From a virus (taxonomy: Duplodnaviria > Caudoviricetes), in the IMG/VR virus record IMGVR_UViG_3300009705_000015, positions 1,016 through 65,015 of that record: a stretch of 64,000 nt of DNA. One strand, 5' to 3'. Shown here one piece after another: positions 4,764 through 47,665 of this stretch; position 1 is the first letter of the stretch, and each line of letters starts with the position of its first letter. The notes below the pieces were generated by a model. The model was not told the DNA's origin and did not search any database. It saw only the letters and a program-made list of their open reading frames with translations. Position numbers and translations under genes: made by a program.

Positions 4764-6614
4764 ATGGCAACAAGAGATGAATCAATCCGTTCATGGATTC
4801 GCACGAACTACCCAAACCAATCAATCCGTGCCAACATGAGTTATGGTCAATTGGTCAGAATTGTTCAAGACCTGTCTGGAGGTTTGCCAGATGTTTTGGG
4901 AGAAGTTCCTGACGATATGAAATCGACACGGATATTTGGCTCGATACAACCAACAACAACGGACAGTTCTGGAACGTCAAATCTGAAAATTGGAACAACA
5001 TCAACCGGCGCATCTGGCAGCAATGCCGCAGCAACAATCACCGATGGCAAATTGAATCTCACATTGCCGAGAGGAACAACGGGAACCACAGGTGCATCTG
5101 GGGCATCTGGGGCAACAGGCTCAACCGGCGCTGATGGGTCGCAAGGCATTCAAGGCATTCAAGGCTCTCAAGGAATACAAGGAGATGAAGGCTCTCAAGG
5201 AACTGCTGGGGCGGCGGGTTCTCAAGGTATTCAAGGTGCTACGGGAACCACAGGTTCTCAAGGTGCTACGGGTCCAGCAGGACTCCAATGGCGAGGTGCT
5301 TGGTCGTCAGCAACCGCATATATCGTATCTGATGTTTCATCCGATTCAGGCCATTCATACGTTTGCATCGTGGCGAATCAATATCGACAACCTCCCAACG
5401 CAACCTATTGGGAATTGCTCGCTGACGCTGGTGCTGCGGGTCCGACAGGTTCAACGGGTCCTCAAGGAGATGTTGGAACAACCGGCTCTCAAGGTGCGAC
5501 CGGCTCAACAGGCTCACAGGGTCCTCAAGGAGATGCTGGCTCTCAAGGTATTCAAGGTAATCAAGGAGTTCAAGGCACTGCTGGAACCACAGGTTCAACG
5601 GGTTCAACGGGGGCGCAGGGTGCAACGGGTTCATCAGGACTTGGAGTTCCTGCTGGTGGTGCAGCACATAAAGCATTGACCAAAATTGATGCCACCGATA
5701 ACAACACCCAATGGGGCGGGGTTATCGAGTTCGCTCAAGCCGATATACCATCTGCACCAGCAACGGGGAATATCCGAATCGGTGCTGGCAACAACAGCAA
5801 CACATTCGCCATCAACACCGAACATGGCTACATCAACATGGGAATGCAAAACGGTGGAACATGGGCGCACATGAAAACAAGTGCAACATACTTCTATTTT
5901 CACAGGTCAATTCAATTGGATGGTGGCGACGGATTGTATGCGTATGATGGCGATTTTTGGGTCAAGACCGACGACAAGAATAACGCACATCACGAGCGTT
6001 TGACAATTCTCGGTGGAGATAGTCTCGTTGCTGGTGAAACACGAATAGGGATTGACAAAACAACCCCAGCAACCGAACTCGATGTGAATGGAACAATTCG
6101 CCAATCTGCGACTACAAATGCAATCGTCTATGCCGATGCAAACGGCGACCTCACCCCATTGACGATTGGTGCTAATCTCACGCTCACAGGGAACTCTTTG
6201 GCCGCATCTGGTGGTGGTGGTGGAGGAACAAATCTATTGCCACCGACTCTCCAGCCTGTTCCTGATGGTGGATTCATTCCCCAAAACCTCAACAAAGTGA
6301 TTGCTTTGGGTGGCGATGGCAGCCCTATGATAATTGACTTGCCACCAACAACCCCAACACATCAAATTACAATCACGAACACGGCATCGACTCCTGTGTT
6401 GGTTCAATTGACTCCAGCCTCATTCCCTCCGATTCTGTGGACTAAAATGAATGGCCAAACAGGAATCCCGATGCAAGGAGGGATGCTGACAGTTCATGCA
6501 GGTGTCAGTGTGAATGCCGTCTATACTAATGATGATGGGGGCGGTCAACCCAGATACTACATCGAAACATTCAATGTCAGCGAAGAAGGTCGAACCATAG
6601 ATATTGCACCATGA
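4764..6614 (+). CDS. collagen-like (Gly-X-Y) fibre protein
   Basis: Two G-X-Y runs flank a WRGAWSSATAY...SYVC...YWELL module; RIGIDKTTPATELDVNG fibre motif. Confidence 0.8.
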   Translation: MATRDESIRSWIRTNYPNQSIRANMSYGQLVRIVQDLSGGLPDVLGEVPDDMKSTRIFGSIQPTTTDSSGTSNLKIGTTSTGASGSNAAATITDGKLNLTLPRGTTGTTGASGASGATGSTGADGSQGIQGIQGSQGIQGDEGSQGTAGAAGSQGIQGATGTTGSQGATGPAGLQWRGAWSSATAYIVSDVSSDSGHSYVCIVANQYRQPPNATYWELLADAGAAGPTGSTGPQGDVGTTGSQGATGSTGSQGPQGDAGSQGIQGNQGVQGTAGTTGSTGSTGAQGATGSSGLGVPAGGAAHKALTKIDATDNNTQWGGVIEFAQADIPSAPATGNIRIGAGNNSNTFAINTEHGYINMGMQNGGTWAHMKTSATYFYFHRSIQLDGGDGLYAYDGDFWVKTDDKNNAHHERLTILGGDSLVAGETRIGIDKTTPATELDVNGTIRQSATTNAIVYADANGDLTPLTIGANLTLTGNSLAASGGGGGGTNLLPPTLQPVPDGGFIPQNLNKVIALGGDGSPMIIDLPPTTPTHQITITNTASTPVLVQLTPASFPPILWTKMNGQTGIPMQGGMLTVHAGVSVNAVYTNDDGGGQPRYYIETFNVSEEGRTIDIAP

Positions 6615-6648
6615 AGCATTTATAGTGGAGTCTCATCAGTGAAACTCC

Positions 6649-6828
6649 ATGACCGAACCATCCAATCCCAAAGGCATATTCAATGGGAGTCTATGCGACC
6701 GTTGCGGGGCTGTAATCAACCAATACAACACGAGGGCTGGTCGTGGCAAAACCGCATCCAAAATACTCTGTGGCAAATGCTATTTGATAAGCAAGAGAGA
6801 ACAAAGAATAAGAGATGGAATGCTTTGA
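6649..6828 (+). CDS. small Zn-finger protein (59 aa)
   Basis: Own translation MTEPSNPKGIFNGSLCDRC...LCGKCY; TTTATAG box 30 nt upstream. Confidence 0.6.
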   Translation: MTEPSNPKGIFNGSLCDRCGAVINQYNTRAGRGKTASKILCGKCYLISKREQRIRDGML

Positions 6829-6871
6829 TATTGCGACCCTTTGATAAGGGTGGGATTTGACTCGCTAATCT

Positions 6872-30085: not shown

Positions 30086-30171
30086 TTTATCCATTTAACG
30101 AATGGGGTTTTTGAAACATTGTTGTTCCAAACCATTGATATAGTCGAACCTGTTGGCTATGTTTGAGCATC

Positions 30172-30420
30172 ATGCAAACGAGCCAATACGATAACCAAGA
30201 CGAGCCAAGAACCCATAGTGGAATGAACTACATTTGTTCATTCAACGATATGAAAAAAGCAAACGCCATCCATGCTACATTGACAGAGATTGGAATGGTT
30301 GTTGAAATGGTCAAAAAACCAAATGGTTGGGGCTATCATGCACACCTATACACCAACGATGAAACCTTGAAAGTCCAAGTAATCAATGGTGAAGACTCAT
30401 TGTATTTGACCGAGATGTGA
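30172..30420 (+). CDS. small hypothetical protein (class A cassette)
   Basis: Promoter at 30117-30144. Confidence 0.6.
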   Translation: MQTSQYDNQDEPRTHSGMNYICSFNDMKKANAIHATLTEIGMVVEMVKKPNGWGYHAHLYTNDETLKVQVINGEDSLYLTEM

Positions 30421-30424
30421 GACT

Positions 30425-30694
30425 GTGCAACAGCAAATCCACACCCTGATGAGGGGCTTGGGCGTTGAGGATGAATCATTCACCCTCCACGAGCCTCTCA
30501 CGGACACACACCATGTTTTCACGACCTATGGGGTCGTTGAATGGATAACGAACAATGGTGGTGAATCGGCGATTCAAAGAGTCGTTGAGTTCCTGACCGT
30601 TTGTCCAGATGGAAAAACAGTTCGTGAGTTATTCATTGACATTGCCAAAGGCTCAATCGACTTGAGTTCAGACCCAGATTTCAAATCAAAGTGA
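30425..30694 (+). CDS. small hypothetical protein
   Basis: ORF. Confidence 0.5.
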   Translation: MQQQIHTLMRGLGVEDESFTLHEPLTDTHHVFTTYGVVEWITNNGGESAIQRVVEFLTVCPDGKTVRELFIDIAKGSIDLSSDPDFKSK

Positions 30695-36737: not shown

Positions 36738-36907
36738 CGACCTTCGCAAAATCGAGCGAAGGCCAATTCTATTTTCATCTATTTTCACACTTAGGAATCA
36801 CGCCACAGGATTGGCGTGAACTCGACCCACGAGATGCTGCATTCTTGGCGAATGCTTTTGTTCAAATGAATGAGAATAAGGCACGACAACAAAGGAGGTC
36901 TCGTTGA
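36728..36907 (+). CDS. -1 frameshift extension of the tail chaperone (gpGT-like)
   Basis: Slippery GGGGGAA at 36728-36734; the -1 frame is open to 36907 (LGITPQDWRELDP). Confidence 0.7.
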   Translation, partial: GGMTTFAKSSEGQFYFHLFSHLGITPQDWRELDPRDAAFLANAFVQMNENKARQQRRSR

Positions 36908-39177
36908 TGTCTAATGACATGAATCTCAAGGTTGTTCTCGATGCTCAAACCGGCGGGTTCAGCAAAGGAATGAAATCAATGCAGCAAGGCTTGTCTGCAT
37001 CCGGCGGCTCTATGGCGAAGTTCTCAAGTATGGCCAAAATGGGATTCGTTGCGATTGGTGTTGCGGCTGCTGCGGCGGGTGCAATGATTCTCACATCATT
37101 CATCATCAAGGCGACCAAGCAATTCATCGAGTTCGAGGAGACGATGATTAAGACGGCGGCAATCATGGGTAAAACCGGCATGGATGAACTGCCAAAATTA
37201 ACTTCTGAAATTAAGCAATTGGGTGCTGAAACCAAGACGACAACCCAAGAGGTTGCAGAAGCAGCACAGATTCTTGCTCTCGCAGGTCTGGGCGAATCGG
37301 AGATGGTTGATGATGGCGCACTTCGCAACCTCAACAACCTCGCAATCGCAGCAGGAATTACTCTCCCAGAAGCGGCGGCTGTCGCAATCTCAACCCTCAA
37401 GGGAATGCAAATGGAAACCAGCGAACTGCGAAAAGTCAATGATATTCTGCTCAATACGCTCTCCAGCACGTTCACCGATATCACATCTCTCGGAGAAGCA
37501 ATGAAGTTCCTCGCCCCAACCGCTTCTGCGGCTGGAGTTAGTCTTGAAGAAGCGGCTGCGGCGGCTGGTATTCTTGGGAACGCCGGACTCAAAGGTTCGA
37601 TGGCTGGAACAGGCTTGCGTATGATGATAACCAAATTGCTCAAGCCAACAGAAGCGGCTCGAATCCAGATGGAAAAATTGGCACTTGACATATTCACATT
37701 GACTCCTGCTGGTGCGGCGGCGAAGGCTTCTTTAGGTAGTGTCAGACGAACATTGGATGCGGCCAAAATGTCTGCAGAAGCCACGAATGCTCAAATGACA
37801 GCACTTAACGAAGTGTTGTCGGATTTGTCGATTGAGCAACAAACCAATAGCCTCGCCATAATGAAAATCAAGAGGCGAGCCGAGAAGGAGGGTCGTGAAT
37901 TAAGCAAACGTGAAGTCGAACAAATCGACAGGCTGGAAAATGCAAATGACGATTTGAATATCACTATGGCCGAGCGCAGAATCGAGCAACAAATCGTTGG
38001 CGCACAGCAGAAAAAGACCAACGCAACCATCTCCGAACAAGCGAAAGAATACTCCAATTTGAACAAAACCGTCAGTGAGCAAACAACAGGAATCACGAGC
38101 CTTTCCGATGTGTTCCATCAATTAGAAGCGGCTGGCGCAACAACCTCCCAGATGCTTGCTATATTCGGTGTTCGTGGTGGAACGGCGGCGAATGCTTTGC
38201 TCGCCAATGTTGATGCTATGGATGAACTCACAGGTGCAAACAAATCGGCTCAAGAAGGGCTTGGATTGACGGCGGAGATGGTTGATGTGATGGGAACATC
38301 AACCTCATATGCTTTGGCAACATTGAACTCGGAATGGAAAGCATTCATGCTTCAAATCGGTGAAGAGTTCGCACCCATGTTGGTTGCAGAAGTCATACCG
38401 GCTCTGCGAGAATTGATTGCATCGTTGTTGCCATTGGTTCCAACATTTGCAGAATTGGCGGTGTCTTTGGGTGAGGTTCTCCCTCCGATAATAGAAGCGT
38501 TGATTCCGATACTCACCAATTTGGGAACTATCCTTAAATTGCTTGCACCATTCATCACCCTAATCGGCTACGCTATGGAGTTATGGTTCTTGTTCATGGA
38601 ACCTGTGTTTGGTTTGGTTGGAGATTTATCGCAAGCACTTATTGACCTTATGAATGGCGACTTTGAAGGATTCATTGGGAGTATCGCATCGGCATTTGGA
38701 AATCTGATTCTGGTTCTCAATCCTGTGTATAGAATGTTGACGGCAATCGCCGAGATGCTCAACGATACAGCAATTGGAGAAGCGGCTGATGATGCAGGGT
38801 TTAATCTCGGCTCGGCGGCTGCGGGCGCAGGTGTTGGATTCGCCGTTGGTGGACCCGTTGGTGCTGCAATCGGAGGTGCGGTCGGTGGATTCTTCTTTGC
38901 TGATGGTGGAATTGTTGACAAGCCAACATTGGGAATCGTTGGAGAGGCCGGACCCGAAGCCGTTATTCCCCTCAATAAATTGGATGGCATCATTGCCAAT
39001 TCCAGCAAGCACGATTCAGCATCCTCTTCACCATCATCATCTCTGACCATCAATGGTGGAATCCACATCGGCGCAGGGAATAACCTCAATAAGCGAGATG
39101 TGAAGTCTGCAATTGAGCAAGTTCTCCCGTCGATGTTATCGGCTGGAACAAGGTCTGGCGCACGGGGGGTTATTTGA
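36907..39177 (+). CDS. tape measure protein (TP901-like core)
   Basis: LGEAMKFLAP.A...G.SLEE.AA..G.L.N.G.KGS.AGTGLR; FADGGIV..PT..GEAGPEAVIPL. Confidence 0.93.
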   Translation: MSNDMNLKVVLDAQTGGFSKGMKSMQQGLSASGGSMAKFSSMAKMGFVAIGVAAAAAGAMILTSFIIKATKQFIEFEETMIKTAAIMGKTGMDELPKLTSEIKQLGAETKTTTQEVAEAAQILALAGLGESEMVDDGALRNLNNLAIAAGITLPEAAAVAISTLKGMQMETSELRKVNDILLNTLSSTFTDITSLGEAMKFLAPTASAAGVSLEEAAAAAGILGNAGLKGSMAGTGLRMMITKLLKPTEAARIQMEKLALDIFTLTPAGAAAKASLGSVRRTLDAAKMSAEATNAQMTALNEVLSDLSIEQQTNSLAIMKIKRRAEKEGRELSKREVEQIDRLENANDDLNITMAERRIEQQIVGAQQKKTNATISEQAKEYSNLNKTVSEQTTGITSLSDVFHQLEAAGATTSQMLAIFGVRGGTAANALLANVDAMDELTGANKSAQEGLGLTAEMVDVMGTSTSYALATLNSEWKAFMLQIGEEFAPMLVAEVIPALRELIASLLPLVPTFAELAVSLGEVLPPIIEALIPILTNLGTILKLLAPFITLIGYAMELWFLFMEPVFGLVGDLSQALIDLMNGDFEGFIGSIASAFGNLILVLNPVYRMLTAIAEMLNDTAIGEAADDAGFNLGSAAAGAGVGFAVGGPVGAAIGGAVGGFFFADGGIVDKPTLGIVGEAGPEAVIPLNKLDGIIANSSKHDSASSSPSSSLTINGGIHIGAGNNLNKRDVKSAIEQVLPSMLSAGTRSGARGVI

Positions 39178-42100: not shown

Positions 42101-44141
42101 CCAAACCGACCGCATGACTCTAATTGAGTTCGATACGGGCGCACCCTCAATGTATCATGGCAGACACGCATTCACGACTCGTGGAACTGCAATGGCAGAG
42201 TCAATGAGAAGTGGATTCTTGCCTCGAAGTCAAGGTGGTTCAAGTTCCAACAGACCCGAATGGACTTCTTGGGAGTCGATGATTATTAACTCACAGGTCA
42301 GCCAACACATTGGGAACACAGAACTGTTCATCTGGGGCGGCTCGAAGACCTTTGACTCAACCGGATTCGATGCGGCTGCATGGAAAAACACCCTCACCAA
42401 TCCAGCCAATGGATGGATATTCAATTCGGCAATGGGGTCAAACAATGTTGGATGGGGCAATATGTCTAATGGATATGGAACAGGCACACCCACCACCATT
42501 TCAGAAGGTTATCACACTATCCGAACAACATTCGATGAAGAGGGAATGCTTCTCAACATTGATGGCACTACAATCGGCAAAGACTTGAACGTGAACAATC
42601 CGGTTTGGGGCTTCGCCATTCAAATGTCGAATGCCGGTGGTGCTGGCGCACGGGCTTCAACCTCACCAATCATTGACCCAAATAATTACTATCTATTCCC
42701 ATCAGGGATGGCATACAATAAGAGCCAAGCCGATTTGCAGATTGATGAAATGGTTGTTCGTCAAATACCATCTCTCCCAATGACACCATTCCCCGTTGAT
42801 ACAATTACGCAGCAGGTTGCTGGGGTTGGAAAATACACAGCACTATCTATCGAGGCCGATAACATTTCAGTCAACGCTGGAATGAACGTGAGAGTCTCAA
42901 TTTGTCCGGTGTCGGCAAATGTCGGCGGTCGTGAGATTGAAGGAGGAACTCCATACACCGGATTCAGCAACATGGATTGCGGCTTCGTTGGTGGATATGG
43001 CTCTGTCGATTTATCCACCTTGCCAGCCGATGCAATCACCAATGGATTCGTTATCCGATTCCTGTTTTTCACCCCAACCGCTTCTGACCCATCCCTCCAG
43101 CCTGTGAATTGGTCTTCGACACCAATAGTTCGAGCATGGACTTTGGAATATGACCTATCTCCGACATCAACAATTGCTTGCACGGGCAACACATTCAACG
43201 GCGACACCGTTGCACCAATCGACACGAAGGTCGGACACATAGTATCATTTAGAGGAACTGCAACCACCACCGATATTGACAGAACAATGTCGTCAGTTCG
43301 ATTCAATTTTGGAGATGGCGTGTCAACCGATTGGTTGCCATTCACCGACCAAACCCTTCAAAGCAACACATTCGATACGGCTCATTCTTATCTGACAACA
43401 GGAACTTATTCAGCAACACTTGAAGTCAGAGATGATGTTGGGAATCTCGCCACATCAGCGGCCTTGAGCGTGGTTGTTGCCAATGCACCTCCGGTCGCAA
43501 TCCTCCGTGCTGTGCCTTCTTTGGTTCGTGCTGGAGATGTTTGCACTTTGGATGCAACCGATTCATTCGATGTCAATGCCGGTGGCTCTTTGACCTCATA
43601 TACATTCGACTTTGGAGATGGCTCTGGAACAATCACGCAAGGCACACCAACGGCTCAACATACATATGCGGCGGCTGGTGAGTATCGAGCGACTCTCACA
43701 GTTCTGGATGCAGATTCGGCGGTATCTCAAACAGCATCGTCGATTGTCAAGTGTTTGCCAGCAACCCTCATTGTTCCATTAGTCTTCAACACCAAACCAA
43801 GAGCATTCAATCGCACACGCTCGGCGGAGATTGGCATGACTCCGGTTCTTGATGCGGTCTATCCTGAAATGACCGATACGGGCAATCGGTCAGATACGTT
43901 CTCATTGTCTGGAATGTTTTTGAAATCGACAGCCAATTCCGATATAGGATTCGTCGAAGAATTACTGCTGACGGGCGCACTTGTTGAGTTCCTGTATGAG
44001 AATGTTGACTATGTTGGCAACCCATCTGGCAAAGTATTCACAGGGCGAATCACTTCATTCGATTATGAACGTCAAGGCGGCGAACATGGCCAAACCCCAT
44101 ACACGATAACTTTGGTTCGAGAAGCCGGACTTGGAGTATGA
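39177..44141 (+). CDS. large tail protein with C-terminal PKD domains
   Basis: Follows the tape measure gene; FNFGDG and FDFGDG...HTY...GEY.ATLTV PKD motifs. Confidence 0.8.
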   Translation: MASTTQKITFVYSRQKNGLCEVQRWWPAYIKNDGVGGLTVDPVLFRSTFGPDTIADEGRGLMDEANTAGLRVEMIGFDGSAPSGTPSLEIIGSGTLDARCVLTHEDGTKTEWRFIGPSADGILATGSAGYGASDRHRAMSMNDGMNPATLASSGPYPVFATMQDFADWLDGYVNHGFGAYVAGFDENAASYSFLPAGLIEPDTSAWPPANADPRQDAANKAAIPTSSKMCATIFMPLLLDNNQMRDSQSGNTATSDIVKGQWDGATIETGAGNSGAYFNFYDEGMTRYDQSPNREGGAVIYKQLGNSGDHKPAKVGSYHTTDPTYNPDNIDDFINNDSDPSSSAYGGPSYRMRTALACFLKDGTYLLTGGSFIPYIYDPARTIGGSNGNTCYAVWNGDKGIANTPAEILAVDTDEMSSAQIFPLTEFVQGPLCSGAQGWNWDADVDGLTTYMNWIYYTQEQTDLKAQYDTTTYSGQTRPNSCTKIGQPRQGLVRPNPIRAKIYAAEQIGTTNATGLAGITTGECKGVLKVWIEKMGTKSVHVPSGMPVNLDFLGLMDGTKDIVGNNDVQYMIGTNTPKVGATENYQLGDTGTAATTGTLLGVSRSGWWIPSISTTLTAVNKSTIVAGATGTFTGVLLEFYINQEVDLPDIASYEEGGWACQGLMGGAEVQYGTGTYTTGSWPYQPLNDPTNGTLGGTGQKYSPNAKNKYNIPAAQFDGKNALPFYSFPTGLGWNAGWNQAGQNVPTAAGHDYRHPTVAVNSPQATWVSDFSGYQDDQQITPRGLSIVAADDSRYLMTPTAQGIGGGMLRLPAPPNFGLADYYYSPTEVLHLDDGTNAPIYGDFSGYFAYGPLDVAAADSSIFKSDTTDARWRSKSMVMPLYSYMENRTGDSGFDKTLPSSWRVGRNRPYPIHERIGTKGGYGPLSGLNYWAINNANAAHSSNRPQVGEETIMTGLAEIGCSPIWLDLTIRAWWPTQTDRMTLIEFDTGAPSMYHGRHAFTTRGTAMAESMRSGFLPRSQGGSSSNRPEWTSWESMIINSQVSQHIGNTELFIWGGSKTFDSTGFDAAAWKNTLTNPANGWIFNSAMGSNNVGWGNMSNGYGTGTPTTISEGYHTIRTTFDEEGMLLNIDGTTIGKDLNVNNPVWGFAIQMSNAGGAGARASTSPIIDPNNYYLFPSGMAYNKSQADLQIDEMVVRQIPSLPMTPFPVDTITQQVAGVGKYTALSIEADNISVNAGMNVRVSICPVSANVGGREIEGGTPYTGFSNMDCGFVGGYGSVDLSTLPADAITNGFVIRFLFFTPTASDPSLQPVNWSSTPIVRAWTLEYDLSPTSTIACTGNTFNGDTVAPIDTKVGHIVSFRGTATTTDIDRTMSSVRFNFGDGVSTDWLPFTDQTLQSNTFDTAHSYLTTGTYSATLEVRDDVGNLATSAALSVVVANAPPVAILRAVPSLVRAGDVCTLDATDSFDVNAGGSLTSYTFDFGDGSGTITQGTPTAQHTYAAAGEYRATLTVLDADSAVSQTASSIVKCLPATLIVPLVFNTKPRAFNRTRSAEIGMTPVLDAVYPEMTDTGNRSDTFSLSGMFLKSTANSDIGFVEELLLTGALVEFLYENVDYVGNPSGKVFTGRITSFDYERQGGEHGQTPYTITLVREAGLGV

Positions 44142-44274
44142 TTATACGACCGATATTGACTCCAATACATCGGAATATCAATACGAACTTCGAGAGTATA
44201 TGAACTCCGCAAAAAAGAACCTAAGTATTGATATACCGACACATTGATATAGTCGAGGCTACACCATTCAAATT

Positions 44275-44696
44275 GTCCGAGCATCCAGCCGAACACCCGA
44301 CTCCCCCAAAGCGGGGCTGAGAACGGTGGGAGTCTGGCGGCTAAGACCGATGCGCCTCCGCATGAAAAGTGCGGGGGATAAAATTGGAAACGAGAGCGAT
44401 TAGAGTCCTCAAGCCTTGAGCCTCCAGAGTCTCCCAAGCAGGTTAAAATGTGCGGGATTACGGCATGGTAGCAAGACAGGATTAGTGTCCACCCTTTGGC
44501 GAGGGTGGTTGGGTATATGATTTGTTTGCGAATATCAGATATTCACAGAACGCACCGACTTCACCTATTTACACGGTGATGTCGATTGTCAGTATGTGTT
44601 TGCTCTCGTTCCCCTGCCTGTCAGAAAGAGTATCGGCGCACTACGCCAAGTGTGTCGAGAGGGTATCTGGCAAGGGTGGGCGCATCGGTTTGGGCT
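44275..44696 (+). ncRNA. candidate large structured ncRNA, about 420 nt
   Basis: Class A promoter 44227-44253 with no ATG at +30; long-range helices 44344-44356/44679-44691 and 44389-44398/44601-44610; several local hairpins. Confidence 0.7.
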
Positions 44697-44752
44697 TCTT
44701 ATTCCATTGATATTACCAAAGCATTGATAAGGGGGAACTGCCAGCGTTGGAT

Positions 44753-45097
44753 ATGACCCAACAGTCAAAGCCAACCAGCCTAAAAGACCGAATGACCAAA
44801 ATGGGGCAAAATAGCCTTTATCCTAATCACATCATCCACCCGATGATGCCAACGGATGCAACCCCTTTGATGCAGAAAATGGTTGAGAACTTTTGCTCTT
44901 ATAATGATACATGGGTCAGCACCCACATGGATAGAGACTTTCTCCTTAGCCTAAACAAATCGCAATACCAATCTCACCGCAATGGCTACAACGCCTCTCC
45001 TGAACAAAGCGAAGCAATCAACGCTCTCGTTGCAGCAGAAGTCTTTGAACTCAATACCACATACAAGCCGGTTCTTATCCTCATCAATTGGGTTTAA
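44753..45097 (+). CDS. hypothetical protein (class A cassette)
   Basis: cattgatattaccaaagcattgataaggggg then ATG at +29. Confidence 0.65.
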   Translation: MTQQSKPTSLKDRMTKMGQNSLYPNHIIHPMMPTDATPLMQKMVENFCSYNDTWVSTHMDRDFLLSLNKSQYQSHRNGYNASPEQSEAINALVAAEVFELNTTYKPVLILINWV

Positions 45098-45141
45098 TCA
45101 AAAGCGAATCCGTGATAAGCCCCAAGCGTTCCACTTGAAGT

Positions 45142-46968
45142 GTGGTTGACGATAGCATAGAGCGATTCCACCGGCTGGTGCGGTCGCCAGAGGATGCGAT
45201 GGTGATTACACCACCTCAACCCCTTCTCGATGAGATAGAGCGTCTTGGACAAGACCCTCGCCGACCACGAACAGCAATTGCGAGATGGGCTTCAAGAATC
45301 TGGTTGGAACACGCTCACACGGCTCGGCTCGAAGGTATCTCCGATAATGAAATTGATTCCACGCATAGTGAAAAAGAATTGATGGAACGGCCATCTCATT
45401 ATCCTGATGATTGGGGTCTTGATTTGATTCCATTCCCATCCGACTTGGGCGGTTCATGGACACGAGATAAGACAACAACGCTCGCATACACCAGCCTCAC
45501 CACACCAAGACCATTCGACCCTCAATTGCATGGTGATGTTGGAACCAGCCCAGACCAAGCACTTGGGTTTGGATATAATTATCAAGGCAAATCGGGATTC
45601 CCAGACCAGCACGACATTGTTGCTCGTCGTGGCGGGGGTCCTCGTGGCGGATTCGCAATGACGACGGGTCCAACAGAAGGTGCATATCCCACAGCAATCC
45701 TCCCACAGCCCGTGTTCAATTTAGGGCGTCTGGGCTTCTCTAATGGAGGTTGGAATCCTGAAGGGCTACAATGGACAAACAGACCCAAGAGGATGCGCTT
45801 AGGAGGTCTTAGGAACGGCTGGGCGCATCGTGTGTTCTTCGCTCGCTCTCGTCGTGTGATGTTCCGCAATTTATTCGGTGCGATTTCAGAAGACGAAGCG
45901 ACTCCACTATGCCCGACCGTAGTGGTCAATGGAATGAATGACCTTCATGGAATACTATCGGTTTCAATGGACAAGACGTTCAATGCACCAACAATTTGCT
46001 CTATCGAAGTCAATAACCCATCTGGTCGTCGAACAGGAACTATCGTCGTTGGCGATACGATTCAGATTTATGCAGCACCGAGAACTTGGGCTGACCCTCC
46101 TTTGGTGTTCACCGGATATGTCTCCGAGATTAACGAATCGACAGAATCAATATCAGTTCGATGTTCAGATGCTCTCGGCTATCTCGGAATCGAAGTTATC
46201 AAATCCGAGCCTCATTATTATCAAACAGATGCGGCGACCGTTATCAAAGACTTCATTGCTAATTCAAATTATTCGCCACCAATCGGTCGGATATTGAATC
46301 AATCATTCGTTATCCTCCCAGCAGGCATTCTCTTTGCTGGAATGACAAGACTCAAAGCGGTGCAGGGGATATTGAACATCATCAACAGCACACCAAATCT
46401 CATTCAATTGTATTGCTCGCCAGATGGAATGATTTGTATGAAGCGGCTCAAAGAAGTTCACGATTCGACAACCATTCCGTATGTTGGAGGGCGACTCCCC
46501 AGAACTGCATCACCTCAAGACTTCTATGCTACGGGAATTGAACGTGAAAGCGGAGATTCAACGGGATTCAATGTGGTCGTGGTTAGCAATCCAAAATTGA
46601 ACATATTGGTCAGCATTCCGGTGAAGGGTTCACTTGCTTATCCAAACATTCCGGTTGAAAGAATTATCAAAGACGAGTCGATTATCAATGACAATCAAGC
46701 CAAAATGGTCGGGGAATATATGTTGAATACTCAAGGATTGGCGAAGACCAGATGGGTCGTTGAAGGAATCCCAGAGCGATTGGATATTGAAACCGGACAA
46801 ATCATGGAGTTCGCATCGGTTGAGGCGAGTCTTGCAGGGCGACAAAGGATATTCAATGTGTCTTGGCAAATCAGCCCAGCAATGTCAACCATGACTTTGA
46901 ATGTTGGCCGACAAGCACCAGACCTGCTCTCGACTTTGAAGTTCGCAGCAGGAATAAATCAGGGCTGA
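45142..46968 (+). CDS. baseplate hub / tail-tip protein (gpD/Tal-like C-terminal half)
   Basis: VFTGYV...VRCSD and hub-like architecture; position in the tail module. Confidence 0.6.
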   Translation: MVDDSIERFHRLVRSPEDAMVITPPQPLLDEIERLGQDPRRPRTAIARWASRIWLEHAHTARLEGISDNEIDSTHSEKELMERPSHYPDDWGLDLIPFPSDLGGSWTRDKTTTLAYTSLTTPRPFDPQLHGDVGTSPDQALGFGYNYQGKSGFPDQHDIVARRGGGPRGGFAMTTGPTEGAYPTAILPQPVFNLGRLGFSNGGWNPEGLQWTNRPKRMRLGGLRNGWAHRVFFARSRRVMFRNLFGAISEDEATPLCPTVVVNGMNDLHGILSVSMDKTFNAPTICSIEVNNPSGRRTGTIVVGDTIQIYAAPRTWADPPLVFTGYVSEINESTESISVRCSDALGYLGIEVIKSEPHYYQTDAATVIKDFIANSNYSPPIGRILNQSFVILPAGILFAGMTRLKAVQGILNIINSTPNLIQLYCSPDGMICMKRLKEVHDSTTIPYVGGRLPRTASPQDFYATGIERESGDSTGFNVVVVSNPKLNILVSIPVKGSLAYPNIPVERIIKDESIINDNQAKMVGEYMLNTQGLAKTRWVVEGIPERLDIETGQIMEFASVEASLAGRQRIFNVSWQISPAMSTMTLNVGRQAPDLLSTLKFAAGINQG

Positions 46969-47161
46969 TATTGGATTCGATATGAAAGTCGCTGATTTCA
47001 GCAACCCCCCAGCGGGTTGATGAAATGCAATTTGACGTTCTATTTGCCTGTCATATTGAACTCAATAGCATTGTCGATGTTTCAGGCTGGCTCGAAACGA
47101 CCGATTTCATTGCTGATTAAAGAACCAAAGCATTGATATAGTGGAATGCACACCGTTGTTT

Positions 47162-47665
47162 GTAGCCGGAACATCAGGCCACCGACGACCCTCGACAATA
47201 ACCGACCACTTTTGAGTCGGCTGGCGGGGATTATTTGAAACGCTACACACCTCAACATGGTGGATAGGGTGCGTGAGTCTCCTTCGAGGAGAACGGATGA
47301 AATAGCCACCTCCCAGATGTTGAGGCGTTCTAAAGACGAGCCTGTGCAGCACCTCGTGAACATCACTTGGTCAGACACCAGCGGAGAACTTAAAGTGGAA
47401 TTGGTTGAAAACCAATGAGAACGGGAGGCATGAGTCTTTCTCCCTCGTTTCAAATACATGGTGAGAATCTCTCCCTTAGCGGGGAGGGTCGTTGCCTTCA
47501 ACCGCACAGGGGGGAGGTCAATCAGAAACATCGAGTTCGTCTTTATTCGGGTGCAAACCGGAACTGAAAGGGTGGCGGGGGTGTGGGCGACAAGCGAAGA
47601 GTTCTATCAACCTCACCGATGATTTGGTTTAGCGACCATCTCATCGGTGCTGGTTGGCCACTTCA
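47162..47665 (+). ncRNA. candidate large structured ncRNA, about 500 nt
   Basis: Class A promoter at 47116-47142; nested helices 47183-93/47484-94, 47232-42/47446-56 (perfect 11 bp), 47250-58/47317-25, 47614-22/47641-49. Confidence 0.75.

What the first reader, a model, noticed from the sequence alone, without database searches (positions are those of the whole stretch)
44275..44696. About 420-nt structured ncRNA after the PKD tail gene
Seen: AGACCGATGCGCC(44344-44356) pairs with GGCGCATCGGTTT(44679-44691), and inside it AACGAGAGCG(44389) pairs with TGCTCTCGTT(44601). A 5' domain has AGCCG/CGGCT enclosing GACTCCC/GGGAGTC. Hairpins include CCTCCGCA/TGCGGGGG, CCACCCTT/GAGGGTGG and CGACTTCACC/GGTGATGTCG. 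The element fills the space between its own promoter and the next cassette's promoter. I see no primary-sequence similarity to the 47-kb RNA, so it may be a second class.
Basis: partly seen in the sequence, partly recalled or inferred. Interest (0 to 1): 0.8.

Follow-up and report, generated by a model that had tools for sequence, protein, structure and literature searches.

The report
Orphan structured RNA cassette in marine virus
A 430-base non-coding stretch behind a tail gene of an uncultured marine virus looks like a self-contained gene for a highly folded RNA that is swapped as a unit between related viruses, but what the RNA does is still unknown.

Summary
The stretch folds better than chance: z -4.05 against a genome background of -0.83 +/- 1.32 over 28 windows. 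An 11-bp perfect long-range repeat appears in only 13 of 1000 shuffles.

The 605-nt gap 44142-44746 is non-coding. It sits between two copies of the virus's promoter-like tandem CATTGATA box.

Contigs from two other studies carry 44261-44705 at 98% identity. Their promoter part is 77% identical and both flanks are unalignable (Fisher p 2.5e-9). The transcribed body is therefore a conserved or exchanged unit.

No Rfam family matches. No diverged homologue was found in any collection, so there is no covariation. Natural variants preserve folding energy only marginally (6% of random sets do as well). Expression rests on one 165-nt contig from an RNA library.

The element is probably not a separate class. 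It shares a start motif, a hairpin and an AAUUGGAAAC tail with the leader of the RNAs found after the 608-aa gene in relatives, although the full leader model fails on it.

Best reading: a promoter-driven non-coding RNA cassette in a magrovirus-like virus, function unknown (confidence about 0.45).

The parts
44214..44254 (+). Promoter-like motif of the cassette. Tandem boxes at 44225-44233 and 44241-44249; proximal TTGATA at 44244-44249 followed by TAGT.
   Evidence: This is the best window match (E 9e-7) to the promoter part of a profile built from the relatives' RNA loci. In the X4/X11 haplotype this part is only ~77% identical.
44273..44276 (+). Predicted transcription start, within ATTGT.
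   Evidence: This is an inference. The end of the TTGATA-type box lies 23-25 nt before the ATG in at least 11 genes of the window. The same spacing from 44249 lands here. TTGT sits at the same distance in the relatives' RNA loci.
44261..44705 (+). Conserved and exchanged cassette body.
   Evidence: the X4 contig (16.9 kb) and X11 contigs carry 8 substitutions and 1 deletion here (98% identity). They carry 16 substitutions in 44190-44260 and have unalignable flanks. Fisher p 2.5e-9.
44287..44342 (+). 5' domain. AGCCG(AAC) motif paired with CGGCU 44338-42, enclosing GACUCCC 44299-305 / GGGAGUC 44328-34.
   Evidence: pair probability 0.46-0.50. An alternative CCCC/GGGG hairpin competes with it. 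Positions 44285-44317 match a 111-nt contig of depth 705 in run X4 with 3 differences; this is unexplained.
44344..44354 (+). Long-range closing helix P1, 5' strand. It pairs with 44681-44691.
   Evidence: P 0.96. An 11-bp perfect repeat occurs in 1.3% of shuffles. No variant in any run laid.
44355..44391 (+). Hairpin 44355-63/44369-77 plus the tail AUAAAAUUGGAAAC (44378-44391). This is the counterpart of hairpin 2 and the tail of the relatives' leader.
   Evidence: P 0.98; model R1 positions 39-60 match at 7.5 bits, E 0.011 in 141 nt; the 10-nt AAUUGGAAAC is identical to the tail in L003, and W_B has AUUUGAAAC.
44386..44612 (+). Inner domain closed by 44386-97 / 44602-12. It contains a weakly defined arm 44404-44483 and hairpins 44489-44508, 44510-44545 and 44556-44584.
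   Evidence: (inverted repeat I5). Seven of the natural variant positions cluster in 44444-44492. The RNA-library contig covers 44373-44537.
44613..44680 (+). 3' arm: 44613-25/44666-80 and 44633-42/44649-58.
   Evidence: P 0.83-0.99. No variant in X4, X8 or X11.
44681..44695 (+). P1 3' strand (44681-91), then GGGC 44692-95, which pairs with the predicted 5' end GUCC 44275-78.
   Evidence: The two ends of the RNA are tied together. No intrinsic-terminator-like site was called on the + strand here.
44704..44733 (+). Promoter-like motif of the next gene. TTGATA at 44724-29 lies 23 nt before ATG 44753.
44753..45097 (+). 114-aa ORF of unknown function. It is not part of the exchanged unit.
   Evidence: no family; no relative in viral or metagenome contigs. 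The X4 contig diverges at 44705.

Best explanation
The stretch is a self-contained non-coding transcription unit, an 'RNA moron', in the tail module of an uncultured, magrovirus-like marine virus.

Inferred steps:
- The tandem CATTGATA/TTGATATAGT box at 44225-44253 starts + strand transcription at about 44273-44275.
- The transcript runs to about 44696-44705, giving roughly 420-430 nt.
- It folds into a closed, multi-domain RNA. Its first bases (GUCC) and the 11-bp helix P1 tie the 5' part to the 3' end. A second long-range helix encloses a ~200-nt multi-hairpin core.
- Its first ~120 nt are a rearranged version of the leader carried by the long non-coding RNAs that related viruses and this virus (47139-47653) encode in front of their giant tail genes. 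The shared elements are TTGT at the start, AGCCGAA, a CCUCC...GGGGG hairpin and an AAUUGGAAAC tail. The body is lineage-specific.
- My committed guess for function: a stable trans-acting RNA made together with the tail genes that works by binding a viral or host protein as a scaffold or decoy. It does not act by base-pairing or by encoding a peptide.

Shown:
- The cassette (promoter plus body) sits upstream of a pre-existing promoter.
- The body is kept or exchanged as a unit between lineages whose neighbouring genes have diverged beyond alignment.

The function itself is the weakest step.
For: Non-coding:
- Stops in all six frames.
- No Pfam or PHROG family for any of the 5 short ORFs.
- No protein homologue of the 62-aa or the 121-aa ORF among 5.8 billion proteins.
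- The 1-nt deletion at 44318 in the X4 haplotype removes the stop of the only ORF that begins at the predicted start, and it frameshifts the 121-aa - strand ORF.

Structure above chance and above the genome background.

Promoter framing. The box-to-ATG spacing is constant at 23-25 nt in at least 11 genes.

Discrete unit:
- In run X4 (one 16.9-kb contig) and in X11 (another study), 44261-44705 is 98% identical.
- In the same contigs 44190-44260 is 77% identical, and the flanks fall below the 80% threshold on both sides (p 2.5e-9).

Variants:
- The natural haplotype is as stable as the reference (-171.4 vs -169.2 kcal/mol).
- 300 random sets of the same changes average -163.8 +/- 5.0, and only 6% are as stable.

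RNA library: one 165-nt contig of a third haplotype at 44373-44537, with nothing on the flanking 1 kb.

Class context:
- The relatives' RNAs at the neighbouring slot have a two-hairpin leader with covariation: 4 of 16 pairs changed on both sides, and 0 of 500 shuffles reach the covariation score, on 5 sequences.
- In L002 the RNA ends in a hairpin plus T6.
- The window element shares the start motif, the hairpin and the tail with that leader.

Presence/absence: L002/L017 have only 140 nt at this slot. L007 has a different ~270-nt promoter-flanked insert.
Against: - No diverged homologue was found, so there is no covariation for this element.
  - blastn and nhmmer against 42 related loci hit only the promoter and the first bases.
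  - Nothing in 5 complete relatives.
  - tblastx best E 0.79.
  - 8 viral, 2 metagenome and 2 genome collection scans. Of these, sought the element itself and found nothing homologous.
- On the predicted fold, the 11 variant events split as 6 unpaired, 2 pair-keeping and 3 pair-breaking. This does not differ from chance (p 0.13).
- The stability test is marginal (6%).
- The fold z-score is equal on both strands.
- Background windows reach z -3.2.
- The RNA evidence is a contig, which cannot show strand, ends or level, and DNA carry-over cannot be excluded.
- No terminator was found, so the transcript may simply read into the next gene.
- The full leader model does not score on it (-0.3 bits; not among 19 hits at E<=10 in the window).
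- The 98% identity could reflect a recent recombination rather than selection.
- No partner protein is identified. Pfam on 64 window ORFs shows no RNA-binding or RNA-processing family.
Confidence: 0.45

Rival explanations
1. Non-functional spacer. The stretch is a scar left by recombination between promoter copies, for example the remnant of a lost gene cassette, and its fold is a by-product of composition and chance.
For: - The element is an orphan with no diverged homologue anywhere.
- There is no covariation.
- Variants are not enriched in loops.
- Coding windows of this genome reach z -3.2.
- The slot is a hotspot with unrelated cargo in relatives: L007 carries a poorly structured insert with z -1.5, and L031 carries GroES/GroEL on the other strand.
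- High identity between two lineages can be a recent recombination event.
Against: - It is the best-folding of 29 windows tested, with the lowest MFE.
- Its nested long-range helices are rare in shuffles.
- The exchanged block matches the predicted transcription unit on both sides, without any neighbouring gene.
- It keeps an intact copy of the RNA-type promoter and leader elements.
- Natural changes do not cost folding energy.
- It is found in 20 runs of 15 studies, so it is not a one-off assembly oddity.
Confidence: 0.2
2. Cis-acting element. The transcript is an upstream leader or interfering transcription unit that reads into the 114-aa and 608-aa genes. It tunes their expression or stabilises the mRNA, rather than acting as a free RNA.
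For: - No terminator-like site lies between the fold and the next gene.
- In relatives the leader-bearing RNA directly precedes the giant tail gene. In L041 no box with the usual spacing is evident before that gene, read from the alignment.
- The 47-kb element in the window ends in a hairpin 47614-47649 immediately before the 2325-aa ORF (I3).
Against: - A complete promoter with the canonical 23-nt spacing sits between the fold and the 114-aa gene, so the gene does not need the upstream unit.
- The X4 lineage carries the same RNA in front of a different downstream sequence, so the RNA is not tied to this gene.
- In L002 the homologous-slot RNA ends in a hairpin plus T6 before the gene.
Confidence: 0.15
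3. CRISPR-repeat mimic. The GC hairpin 44355-44377 with its AAUUGGAAAC tail imitates a host CRISPR repeat (a solitary repeat unit or RNA anti-CRISPR). Host Cas6-type enzymes or Cas complexes would then be loaded with a bulky structured RNA.
For: - A hairpin followed by a ...AUUG(G)AAA(C/G) tail is conserved at the same place in W_A, W_B, L041-type and L003 RNAs, in 4 of the 6 distinct leaders inspected.
- L041 carries AUUGAAAG, which I recall as the common 8-nt crRNA 5' handle. This is recalled, not tested.
- There is a weak Rfam touch on CRISPR-DR58 at the tail (14.4 bits, E 8).
- Promoter-driven solitary repeats in viruses are a described kind (recalled).
Against: - The Rfam hit is far below threshold (gathering score 38), and L041's leader hits no CRISPR-DR model.
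- The 21-mer of hairpin plus tail has no exact match in 185,579 species genomes.
- There is only one unit per RNA and no array.
- The 60 nt after the tail of four RNAs match nothing of 20 nt or more outside the RNA loci themselves, in the 5 complete relatives, 42 loci and the window.
- The host and its CRISPR repeats are unknown.
- L022 and L002 lack the tail.
Confidence: 0.08
4. DNA-level element: a replication-origin transcript (R-loop type), a recombination site or a protein-binding region. The inverted repeats would matter as DNA.
For: - The fold z-score is equal on both strands.
- A promoter is followed by a G-rich non-template strand, with GC skew +0.13 to +0.17.
- The slot is recombinogenic.
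Against: - There is no GC-skew turn near 44 kb over the window.
- Arms 322 nt apart are not a protein-binding palindrome.
- The location is inside the tail module.
- G-U pairs make the + strand 19 kcal/mol more stable than the - strand.
- The element has a single copy.
Confidence: 0.05
5. It encodes one or more small proteins, for example ORF 44522-44710 or a peptide starting at the predicted transcript start.
For: - ORFs of 43-121 aa exist.
- This virus appears to use start codons at the transcript start, and TTG lies at 44273.
Against: - None of the 5 ORFs has a family.
- Neither of the two ORFs searched has a homologue.
- The TTG-44273 frame stops after 15 codons, and the X4 deletion at 44318 destroys that stop.
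- The same frame in W_B and L022 stops at the second codon, read.
- The only changes inside 44522-44710 are two adjacent bases in one codon.
- No box lies at the right distance before 44522.
Confidence: 0.03

Closest known systems
Leader-bearing long non-coding RNAs in the tail module of related viral contigs (L041/L004/L007, L003, L022, L002) and the window's own 47139-47653 element. This group is undescribed and is defined here.
   Same: - Same promoter type.
- TTGT 16-18 nt after TATAG(T/G).
- A(G/C)CCG(G)AA(G/C) motif.
- CCUCC...GGGGG hairpin with an AUG..AGU loop.
- AAUUG(G)AAA(C/G) tail.
- The tail is followed by a long-range helix enclosing a multi-hairpin body: for the window; read for L041.
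   Different: - Hairpin 1 is missing.
- About 60 nt (44295-44354, including the 5' domain and the P1 strand) are inserted between AGCCGAAC and the hairpin.
- The full model scores -0.3 bits.
- The body has no detectable similarity.
- The slot differs: it lies after the PKD tail gene rather than after the 608-aa gene.
Morons (independent transcription units inserted between phage genes) and PeSL promoter cassettes of T4-type phages (PMC2839356, PMC4122927; I saw the search listing and the start of the abstracts only).
   Same: - It is flanked by copies of a conserved promoter motif.
- It is present in some relatives and absent in others.
- It is exchanged as a block whose ends fall at the promoter copies.
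   Different: - The cargo is non-coding.
- No stem-loop terminator is part of the repeated motif.
- The virus group is different, and the promoters are probably archaeal-type.
GOLLD and ROOL, large ornate RNAs associated with phages (PMC12286853; search listing and start of the abstract).
   Same: It is a several-hundred-nucleotide, multi-domain RNA of unknown function carried by a virus, with no protein partner encoded next to it.
   Different: - No match to their Rfam models or any other.
- It is smaller, at ~430 nt.
- No tRNA genes lie nearby (0 in the window).
- There is no comparative support and no evidence of multimerisation.
Virus-borne solitary CRISPR repeat units and RNA anti-CRISPRs
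   Same: A promoter-driven transcript containing a GC hairpin followed by a short A/U-rich ...UUG(G)AAAC tail.
   Different: - No matching CRISPR repeat is known.
- It is a single unit embedded in a 430-nt fold.
- No spacer-like match was found.
Cis-acting antitermination leaders such as HK022 put RNA (recalled).
   Same: Two conserved hairpins lie immediately downstream of a viral promoter in the relatives' RNAs.
   Different: - The window element lacks hairpin 1.
- No terminators to override were found.
- 300-700 nt of extra structured RNA is not explained by this role.

Membership tests
Any Rfam 15 family (4227 models, including group I/II introns, riboswitches, RNase P, SRP, tmRNA, 6S, GOLLD, ROOL, CRISPR-DR) | Covariance-model score at or above the family's gathering score | tested here: not met
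   There were 0 matches at gathering thresholds in the whole window and in 15 related loci. At E<=10 on 44255-44712, the only matches were CRISPR-DR58 (14.4 bits vs 38) and MIMT1_1 (12.7 vs 45), which are noise.
Leader family of the relatives' tail-module RNAs (model R1, built without the window) | Promoter type and TTGT at fixed distance | tested here: met
   TATAGT, then 18 nt, then ATTGT. The spacing is 16-18 nt in the 7 other leader instances. The promoter is the best window match to the relatives' profile, E 9e-7.
Leader family of the relatives' tail-module RNAs (model R1) | A(G/C)CCGAA(G/C) single-stranded motif after hairpin 1 | tested here: met
   AGCCGAAC lies at 44287-44294. My chance estimate is post hoc.
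Leader family of the relatives' tail-module RNAs (model R1) | Hairpin 1 between TTGT and the CCGAA motif | tested here: not met
   The 10 nt CCGAGCATCC have no self-complementarity.
Leader family of the relatives' tail-module RNAs (model R1) | Hairpin 2 and the UGAAUUGAAAG-type tail | tested here: inconclusive
   The local match 44355-44377 scores 7.5 bits, E 0.011 within 141 nt but E 4.9 window-wide. The tail AAUUGGAAAC is identical to L003's. The hairpin is displaced by a ~60-nt insertion.
Leader family of the relatives' tail-module RNAs (model R1) | Full-length model score | tested here: not met
   The score is -0.3 bits for 44269-44328. By comparison, W_B 47156-47221 scores 13.2 bits, E 0.067, rank 2 of 19.
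Moron / promoter-bounded cassette | Own promoter; presence/absence among relatives; block boundaries at the repeated regulatory motif | tested here: met
   promoter copies on both sides; absent in L002/L017; other cargo in L007; block 44261-44705. The promoter activity itself is inferred. No terminator was found.
Self-splicing intron (group I or II) | Interrupts a gene; conserved catalytic core | tested here: not met
   There are no Rfam intron hits. The PKD gene ends at a stop at 44139-41 and reading on stops again after 5 codons. The next ORF has its own promoter.
MITE or other small transposable element | Terminal inverted repeats at the element's ends; several copies | tested here: not met
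   There is a single copy in the 65-kb record and none in 5 complete relatives. The 11-13-bp arms begin ~85 nt inside the conserved block.
CRISPR repeat mimic (solitary repeat unit / RNA anti-CRISPR) | Close similarity to a CRISPR repeat of the host or of a known type | tested here: inconclusive
   Below-threshold Rfam touch only, and none for L041. No exact 21-mer in genome contigs. The host repeats are unknown, so the key comparison is not testable with these tools.
Magrovirus-like virus (context of the element, not the element itself) | Genome of ~65-100 kb with family B DNA polymerase, archaeo-eukaryotic primase, a tailed-virus structural module, and often GroEL (Philosof 2017, PMC5434244; passages read) | tested here: inconclusive
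   Features found:
- Complete relatives are 80.7-82.8 kb, and one has direct terminal repeats.
- DNA_pol_B is over the cut-off in 4 of 4 complete relatives searched. It is not found in the 80%-complete own record.
- RFC-like lids and a Prim-Pol domain are present.
- Portal, HK97-type capsid and terminase are present.
- GroEL and GroES are present in L031.

No phylogeny was done. The host was not established. No similarity to any cultured phage is better than ~32% over a third of the protease-like protein.

The most novel reading that the evidence does not exclude
Magrovirus-like archaeal viruses carry a hitherto undescribed family of promoter-driven long RNAs. A conserved 5' module (hairpin plus ...AUUG(G)AAAC tail, resembling a CRISPR repeat with its crRNA handle) is fused to fast-evolving, highly folded bodies that are swapped between viruses as cassettes. 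The 44.3-kb element is one such cassette. Its role would be to jam or redirect a host RNA-guided defence or an RNA-processing enzyme, with the structured body acting as the payload or stabiliser.
Probability: 0.08. Interest if true: 0.85.

Novelty: new variant of a known kind. Interest (0 to 1): 0.55.

Why it matters
If real, this would be the first structured non-coding RNA gene noted in viruses of the magrovirus type. My word searches found 0 occurrences of 'promoter', 'non-coding', 'ncRNA', 'intergenic' or 'leaderless' in two papers on these viruses. They found 0 occurrences of 'promoter', 'intergenic' or 'TATA', and a single 'RNA' that names an RNA polymerase, in the founding paper.

It would also show that non-coding cargo, and not only genes, is traded between viral genomes through promoter-bounded cassettes.

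The constant 23-25-nt box-to-ATG spacing gives a testable promoter and transcript-start model for an uncultured virus group.

The element is also a cautionary case. It has a strong fold and clean boundaries but no diverged relatives, so only transcript mapping and probing can settle it.

Tried and rejected
**Homologue hunts that found nothing**
- blastn and nhmmer against 42 related loci.
- DNA search of 5 complete relatives.
- tblastx.
- phages collection in distant mode.
- P1-arm pattern in viral contigs.
- P1-arm pattern in metagenome contigs: 12 stretches, all chance, with only the arms matching.
- 5'-domain patterns.
- Translated-frame scans of two open stretches: 49 and 24 pattern matches, none confirmed.
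- The downstream 114/116-aa protein as bait in viral and metagenome contigs.

**The depth-705 contig**
A 23-nt motif from its loose end was absent from viral contigs and genome contigs, and had no near match (up to 6 mismatches) in my loci.

**CRISPR-mimic idea**
- No exact 21-mer in genomes.
- No CRISPR-DR match for L041's leader.
- No array.
- No protospacer-like match.

**Origin idea:** no skew turn.

**A put-like leader common to all promoters:** rejected, because the motif follows only the promoters in front of non-coding stretches.

**Coding:** rejected.

**Profile of the relatives' RNA bodies against the window:** it finds only promoters.

**Parts of 43950-45150 without cover in runs X8, X11 and X14:** these say nothing either way, because contigs show presence only.

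**Runs with small word shares that I did not lay:** these are not evidence of habitat.

**Tools and files closed or unseen**
- Supplementary tables of the magrovirus papers, which may list genomes like this one, were not seen.
Full report
**Where the window lies.** The window is 64 kb of a 65-kb IMG/VR virus record rated 80% complete. The finding lies in the tail module. A tape-measure-like gene (PhageMin_Tail, 36904-39177) is followed by a 1655-aa PKD-domain protein that ends at 44141. Then comes a 605-nt gap, a small ORF (ATG 44753-45097), a 608-aa ORF, a second gap (46969-47653) and a 2325-aa ORF. With a crude gene call, 44142-44746 is the longest ORF-free gap inside the window.

The well-determined helices (mean pair probability at least 0.9) are:
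- 44344-54/44681-91 (P1)
- 44355-63/44369-77
- 44391-97/44602-08 (P2)
- 44489-96/44501-08
- 44556-65/44575-84
- 44620-25/44666-71
- 44633-42/44649-58

The 5' domain (AGCCG/CGGCU, GACUCCC/GGGAGUC) reaches only 0.46-0.50, and the arm 44404-44483 is poorly defined.

The fold is better than chance:
- z is -4.05, and 0 of 100 shuffles fold as well.
- It is better than the rest of this genome. Twenty-eight other 422-nt windows gave mean z -0.83, sd 1.32 and minimum -3.20, while the target scored -4.24 with the lowest MFE of all.
- A perfect 11-bp inverted repeat occurs in 13 of 1000 shuffles. The number of 8-mer inverted repeats (7) is reached by 0.7% of shuffles.

The - strand folds with the same z (-3.96), so folding alone does not give the strand.

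**Non-coding.** All six frames are broken. The five short ORFs have no Pfam or PHROG family. The 62-aa ORF 44522-44710 and the 121-aa - strand ORF have no relative among 5.8 billion proteins within the length ranges searched.

**Promoter frame.** A tandem box (nCATTGATA, 8 nt, nCATTGATA) occurs at 44225/44241 and again at 44704/44721. It also occurs before many + strand genes.
- The end of the proximal TTGATA-type hexamer lies 23-25 nt before the ATG in at least 11 genes, with no Shine-Dalgarno sequence in between.
- From established knowledge (recalled), this is the spacing of an archaeal TATA box in front of leaderless mRNAs. It does not fit a sigma-70 promoter.
- Applied to the box at 44244-44249, the spacing predicts a start at 44273-44275, inside ATTGT.
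- The first four bases GUCC then pair with GGGC 44692-95 next to P1, so the two ends of the predicted RNA are tied together.
- No terminator-like site was called on the + strand.

**Relatives.** The 608-aa protein retrieved 42 related loci at 48-71% identity.
- None carries the RNA. blastn and nhmmer hits are confined to the promoter and the first bases.
- Five complete relatives of 80.7-82.8 kb have nothing, and tblastx finds nothing.
- At the same slot, L002/L017 have only 140 nt.
- L041-type loci have small ORFs there.
- L007 has a different ~270-nt insert flanked by two promoter copies, which folds poorly (z -1.5).
- L031-type loci carry GroEL and GroES genes on the opposite strand in the slot just before the 608-aa homologue, between a 159-aa ORF and that gene.

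The intergenic slots of this tail module are therefore hotspots for varied cargo.

**A second lineage.** Twenty public runs from 15 studies hold at least part of the stretch, and three hold half or more of its sampled words. I laid four runs.
- *Boundaries.* A 16.9-kb contig of run X4 aligns from 44190 to 44705 and is unalignable (below 80%) on both sides. Its upstream loose end resembles the conserved sequence that follows the tail-gene stop in relatives. Its downstream loose end is another promoter.
- *Independent confirmation.* Short contigs of run X11, from another study, show the same changes and the same upstream junction.
- *Distribution of changes.* All 24 substitutions are accounted for: 16 in 44190-44260 (71 nt) and 8, plus one 1-nt deletion, in 44261-44705 (445 nt). 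The contrast gives Fisher p 2.5e-9.
- *Conclusion.* The highly conserved block thus starts just after the box and ends where the next promoter begins. This is the predicted transcription unit, with no neighbouring gene included.
- *Interpretation.* This fits either strong constraint or a recent exchange through the promoter repeats. The latter resembles the PeSL-mediated shuffling described for T4-type phages (PMC2839356, PMC4122927; listing only).

**Do the variants respect the fold?** Evidence here is weak.
- Of 11 variant events (X4/X11, X8, X14), 6 fall at unpaired positions, 2 keep a pair and 3 break one. That gives p 0.13 against 66% paired positions.
- The whole X4 haplotype is nevertheless as stable as the reference (-171.4 vs -169.2 kcal/mol).
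- In contrast, 300 random sets of the same kinds of change average -163.8 +/- 5.0, and only 6% are as stable.
- The deletion at 44318 removes the stop of the 15-codon frame that begins at TTG 44273 and frameshifts the 121-aa - strand ORF. This argues against both as genes.

**Expression.** One RNA library (X14) yields a 165-nt contig over 44373-44537, of a third haplotype, at depth 8. It yields nothing on the rest of 43950-45150. Contigs give no strand, ends or level, and DNA carry-over is possible. This is only a hint.

**Known families.** No Rfam match at gathering thresholds in the window or in 15 related loci. At E<=10 there is nothing beyond noise. There are no tRNA or tmRNA genes in the window.

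**Relation to the other RNAs.** The gaps after the 608-aa gene in L041/L004/L007, L003, L022 and L002 begin with the same promoter type and a conserved leader. The leader runs TTGT, hairpin 1, A(G/C)CCGAAG, hairpin 2, then UGA...
- On five sequences the two hairpins are 92% paired, 4 of 16 pairs change on both sides, and 0 of 500 shuffles reach the covariation score. Slid controls drop to 45-64% paired.
- In L002 the RNA ends in a hairpin followed by T6 just before the next gene.
- I built a model of this leader without any window sequence (R1).
- In the whole window, R1 places the 47-kb element second (47156-47221, 13.2 bits, E 0.067). The top hit, at 45880 inside the 608-aa gene, is probably chance.
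- The 44.3-kb element is not found as a whole (-0.3 bits).
- Its hairpin 44355-44377 does match model hairpin 2 (7.5 bits; E 0.011 in the 141 nt examined but 4.9 window-wide), with a CG-to-GC swap in the stem.
- The following AAUUGGAAAC is identical to the tail in L003. W_B has AUUUGAAAC and L041 has AAUUGAAAG.

Together with TTGT at the start and AGCCGAAC, this makes the element look like the same leader with hairpin 1 lost and ~60 nt inserted (44295-44354: the 5' domain and the P1 strand). I put homology of the leader at roughly three in four. It is not proven, and the motif-level arguments are post hoc. The bodies are unrelated in sequence.

**Host context.**
- Complete relatives encode a family B DNA polymerase: 4 of 4 complete records searched. 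It is absent from the incomplete own record.
- They also encode RFC-like clamp-loader lids, a Prim-Pol domain and CobS/CobT-like proteins.
- The window encodes portal, HK97-type capsid, protease and terminase.
- Some relatives carry GroEL.

This matches the description of magroviruses (PMC5434244, passages read; PMC11706807, passages). So does the TATA-like spacing. No tree was built and no host link was shown. Cultured phages are only remotely similar.

**Ideas tested and dropped.**
- CRISPR-repeat mimic: the resemblance is hairpin plus tail only. No CRISPR-DR model matches, there is no exact genomic 21-mer, no array and no spacer-like target.
- Replication origin: no skew turn.
- MITE: single copy, and the arms are not terminal.
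- Intron: no core, and no split gene.

**Unexplained.** A 111-nt contig of depth 705 in run X4 matches 44285-44317 with 3 differences and continues with a similar but diverged sequence. A 23-mer from it is absent from viral and genome collections.

**Verdict.** The interpretation 'structured ncRNA' is the best reading but is not demonstrated. 'Second class' is probably wrong. I give 0.45 to a functional, promoter-driven, trans-acting structured RNA cassette, 0.15 to a cis-acting leader, 0.20 to a non-functional scar, and the remainder to the minor rivals.

Supplements of the cited papers were not seen.

Noticed in passing
Its fold z is -3.13. Its start matches the relatives' leader model at 13.2 bits, E 0.067. 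It ends in a 15-bp hairpin at 47614-47649 just before the ORF.
   Followed up: partly
L041:5868-5965, L007:4755-4852, L003:5863-5960, L022:3982-4075, L002:5836-5925: A conserved two-hairpin leader (TTGT, hairpin, ACCGAAG, hairpin, UGAAUUGAAAG-like tail) sits at the start of 300-740-nt non-coding RNAs after the 608-aa gene. Covariation is seen on 5 sequences: 4 of 16 pairs changed on both sides, and 0 of 500 shuffles reach the score. No Rfam match.
   Followed up: partly
L002:5811-6170: A discrete RNA gene layout: promoter-like box, ~310 nt of non-coding sequence, then a GC hairpin followed by T6 about 35 nt before the next large ORF.
   Followed up: partly
window, at least 11 gene starts (e.g. 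2677, 3179, 25763, 44724, 60501): The end of the TTGATA-type box lies 23-25 nt before the ATG, with no Shine-Dalgarno sequence. This resembles an archaeal TATA box in front of leaderless mRNAs. One gene (ATG about 11289) instead has an AGGAG 9 nt upstream.
   Followed up: partly
L031:2096-4065 (- strand); likely the same slot in L025, L032, L034, L039, L040, L042, L043, whose gaps there cluster with L031's: GroEL-like (Cpn60_TCP1, E 4e-62) and GroES-like (Cpn10, E 2e-6) genes lie on the opposite strand in the slot just before the 608-aa homologue. I examined only L031.
   Followed up: partly
run X4, record 7, laid on window 44285-44317: A 111-nt contig of depth 705 (the viral contig has depth 10.8) matches 33 nt of the 5' domain with 3 differences and continues with a related GGUGGGAG-containing sequence. 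Its origin is unknown, and it is absent from the viral and genome collections by a 23-mer.
   Followed up: partly
L007:2270-2560: A different ~270-nt insert, flanked by two promoter-like copies, sits at the same slot as the finding. It has no significant fold (z -1.47).
   Followed up: yes
window 30135-30690: A TATAGT-type box is followed by ~550 nt holding only two short ORFs (85 and 88 aa) and an overlapping - strand ORF. It could be another non-coding unit.
   Followed up: no
L028:2128-3233 and 5795-6827; L026:2292-3233 and 5795-6852: Roughly 1-kb stretches flanking the 597-aa homologue in another lineage have no ORF over about 130 aa on either strand.
   Followed up: no
window 45880-45934: The best window-wide hit of leader model R1 (17.4 bits, E 0.0029) lies inside the 608-aa ORF. 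It is probably chance.
   Followed up: no
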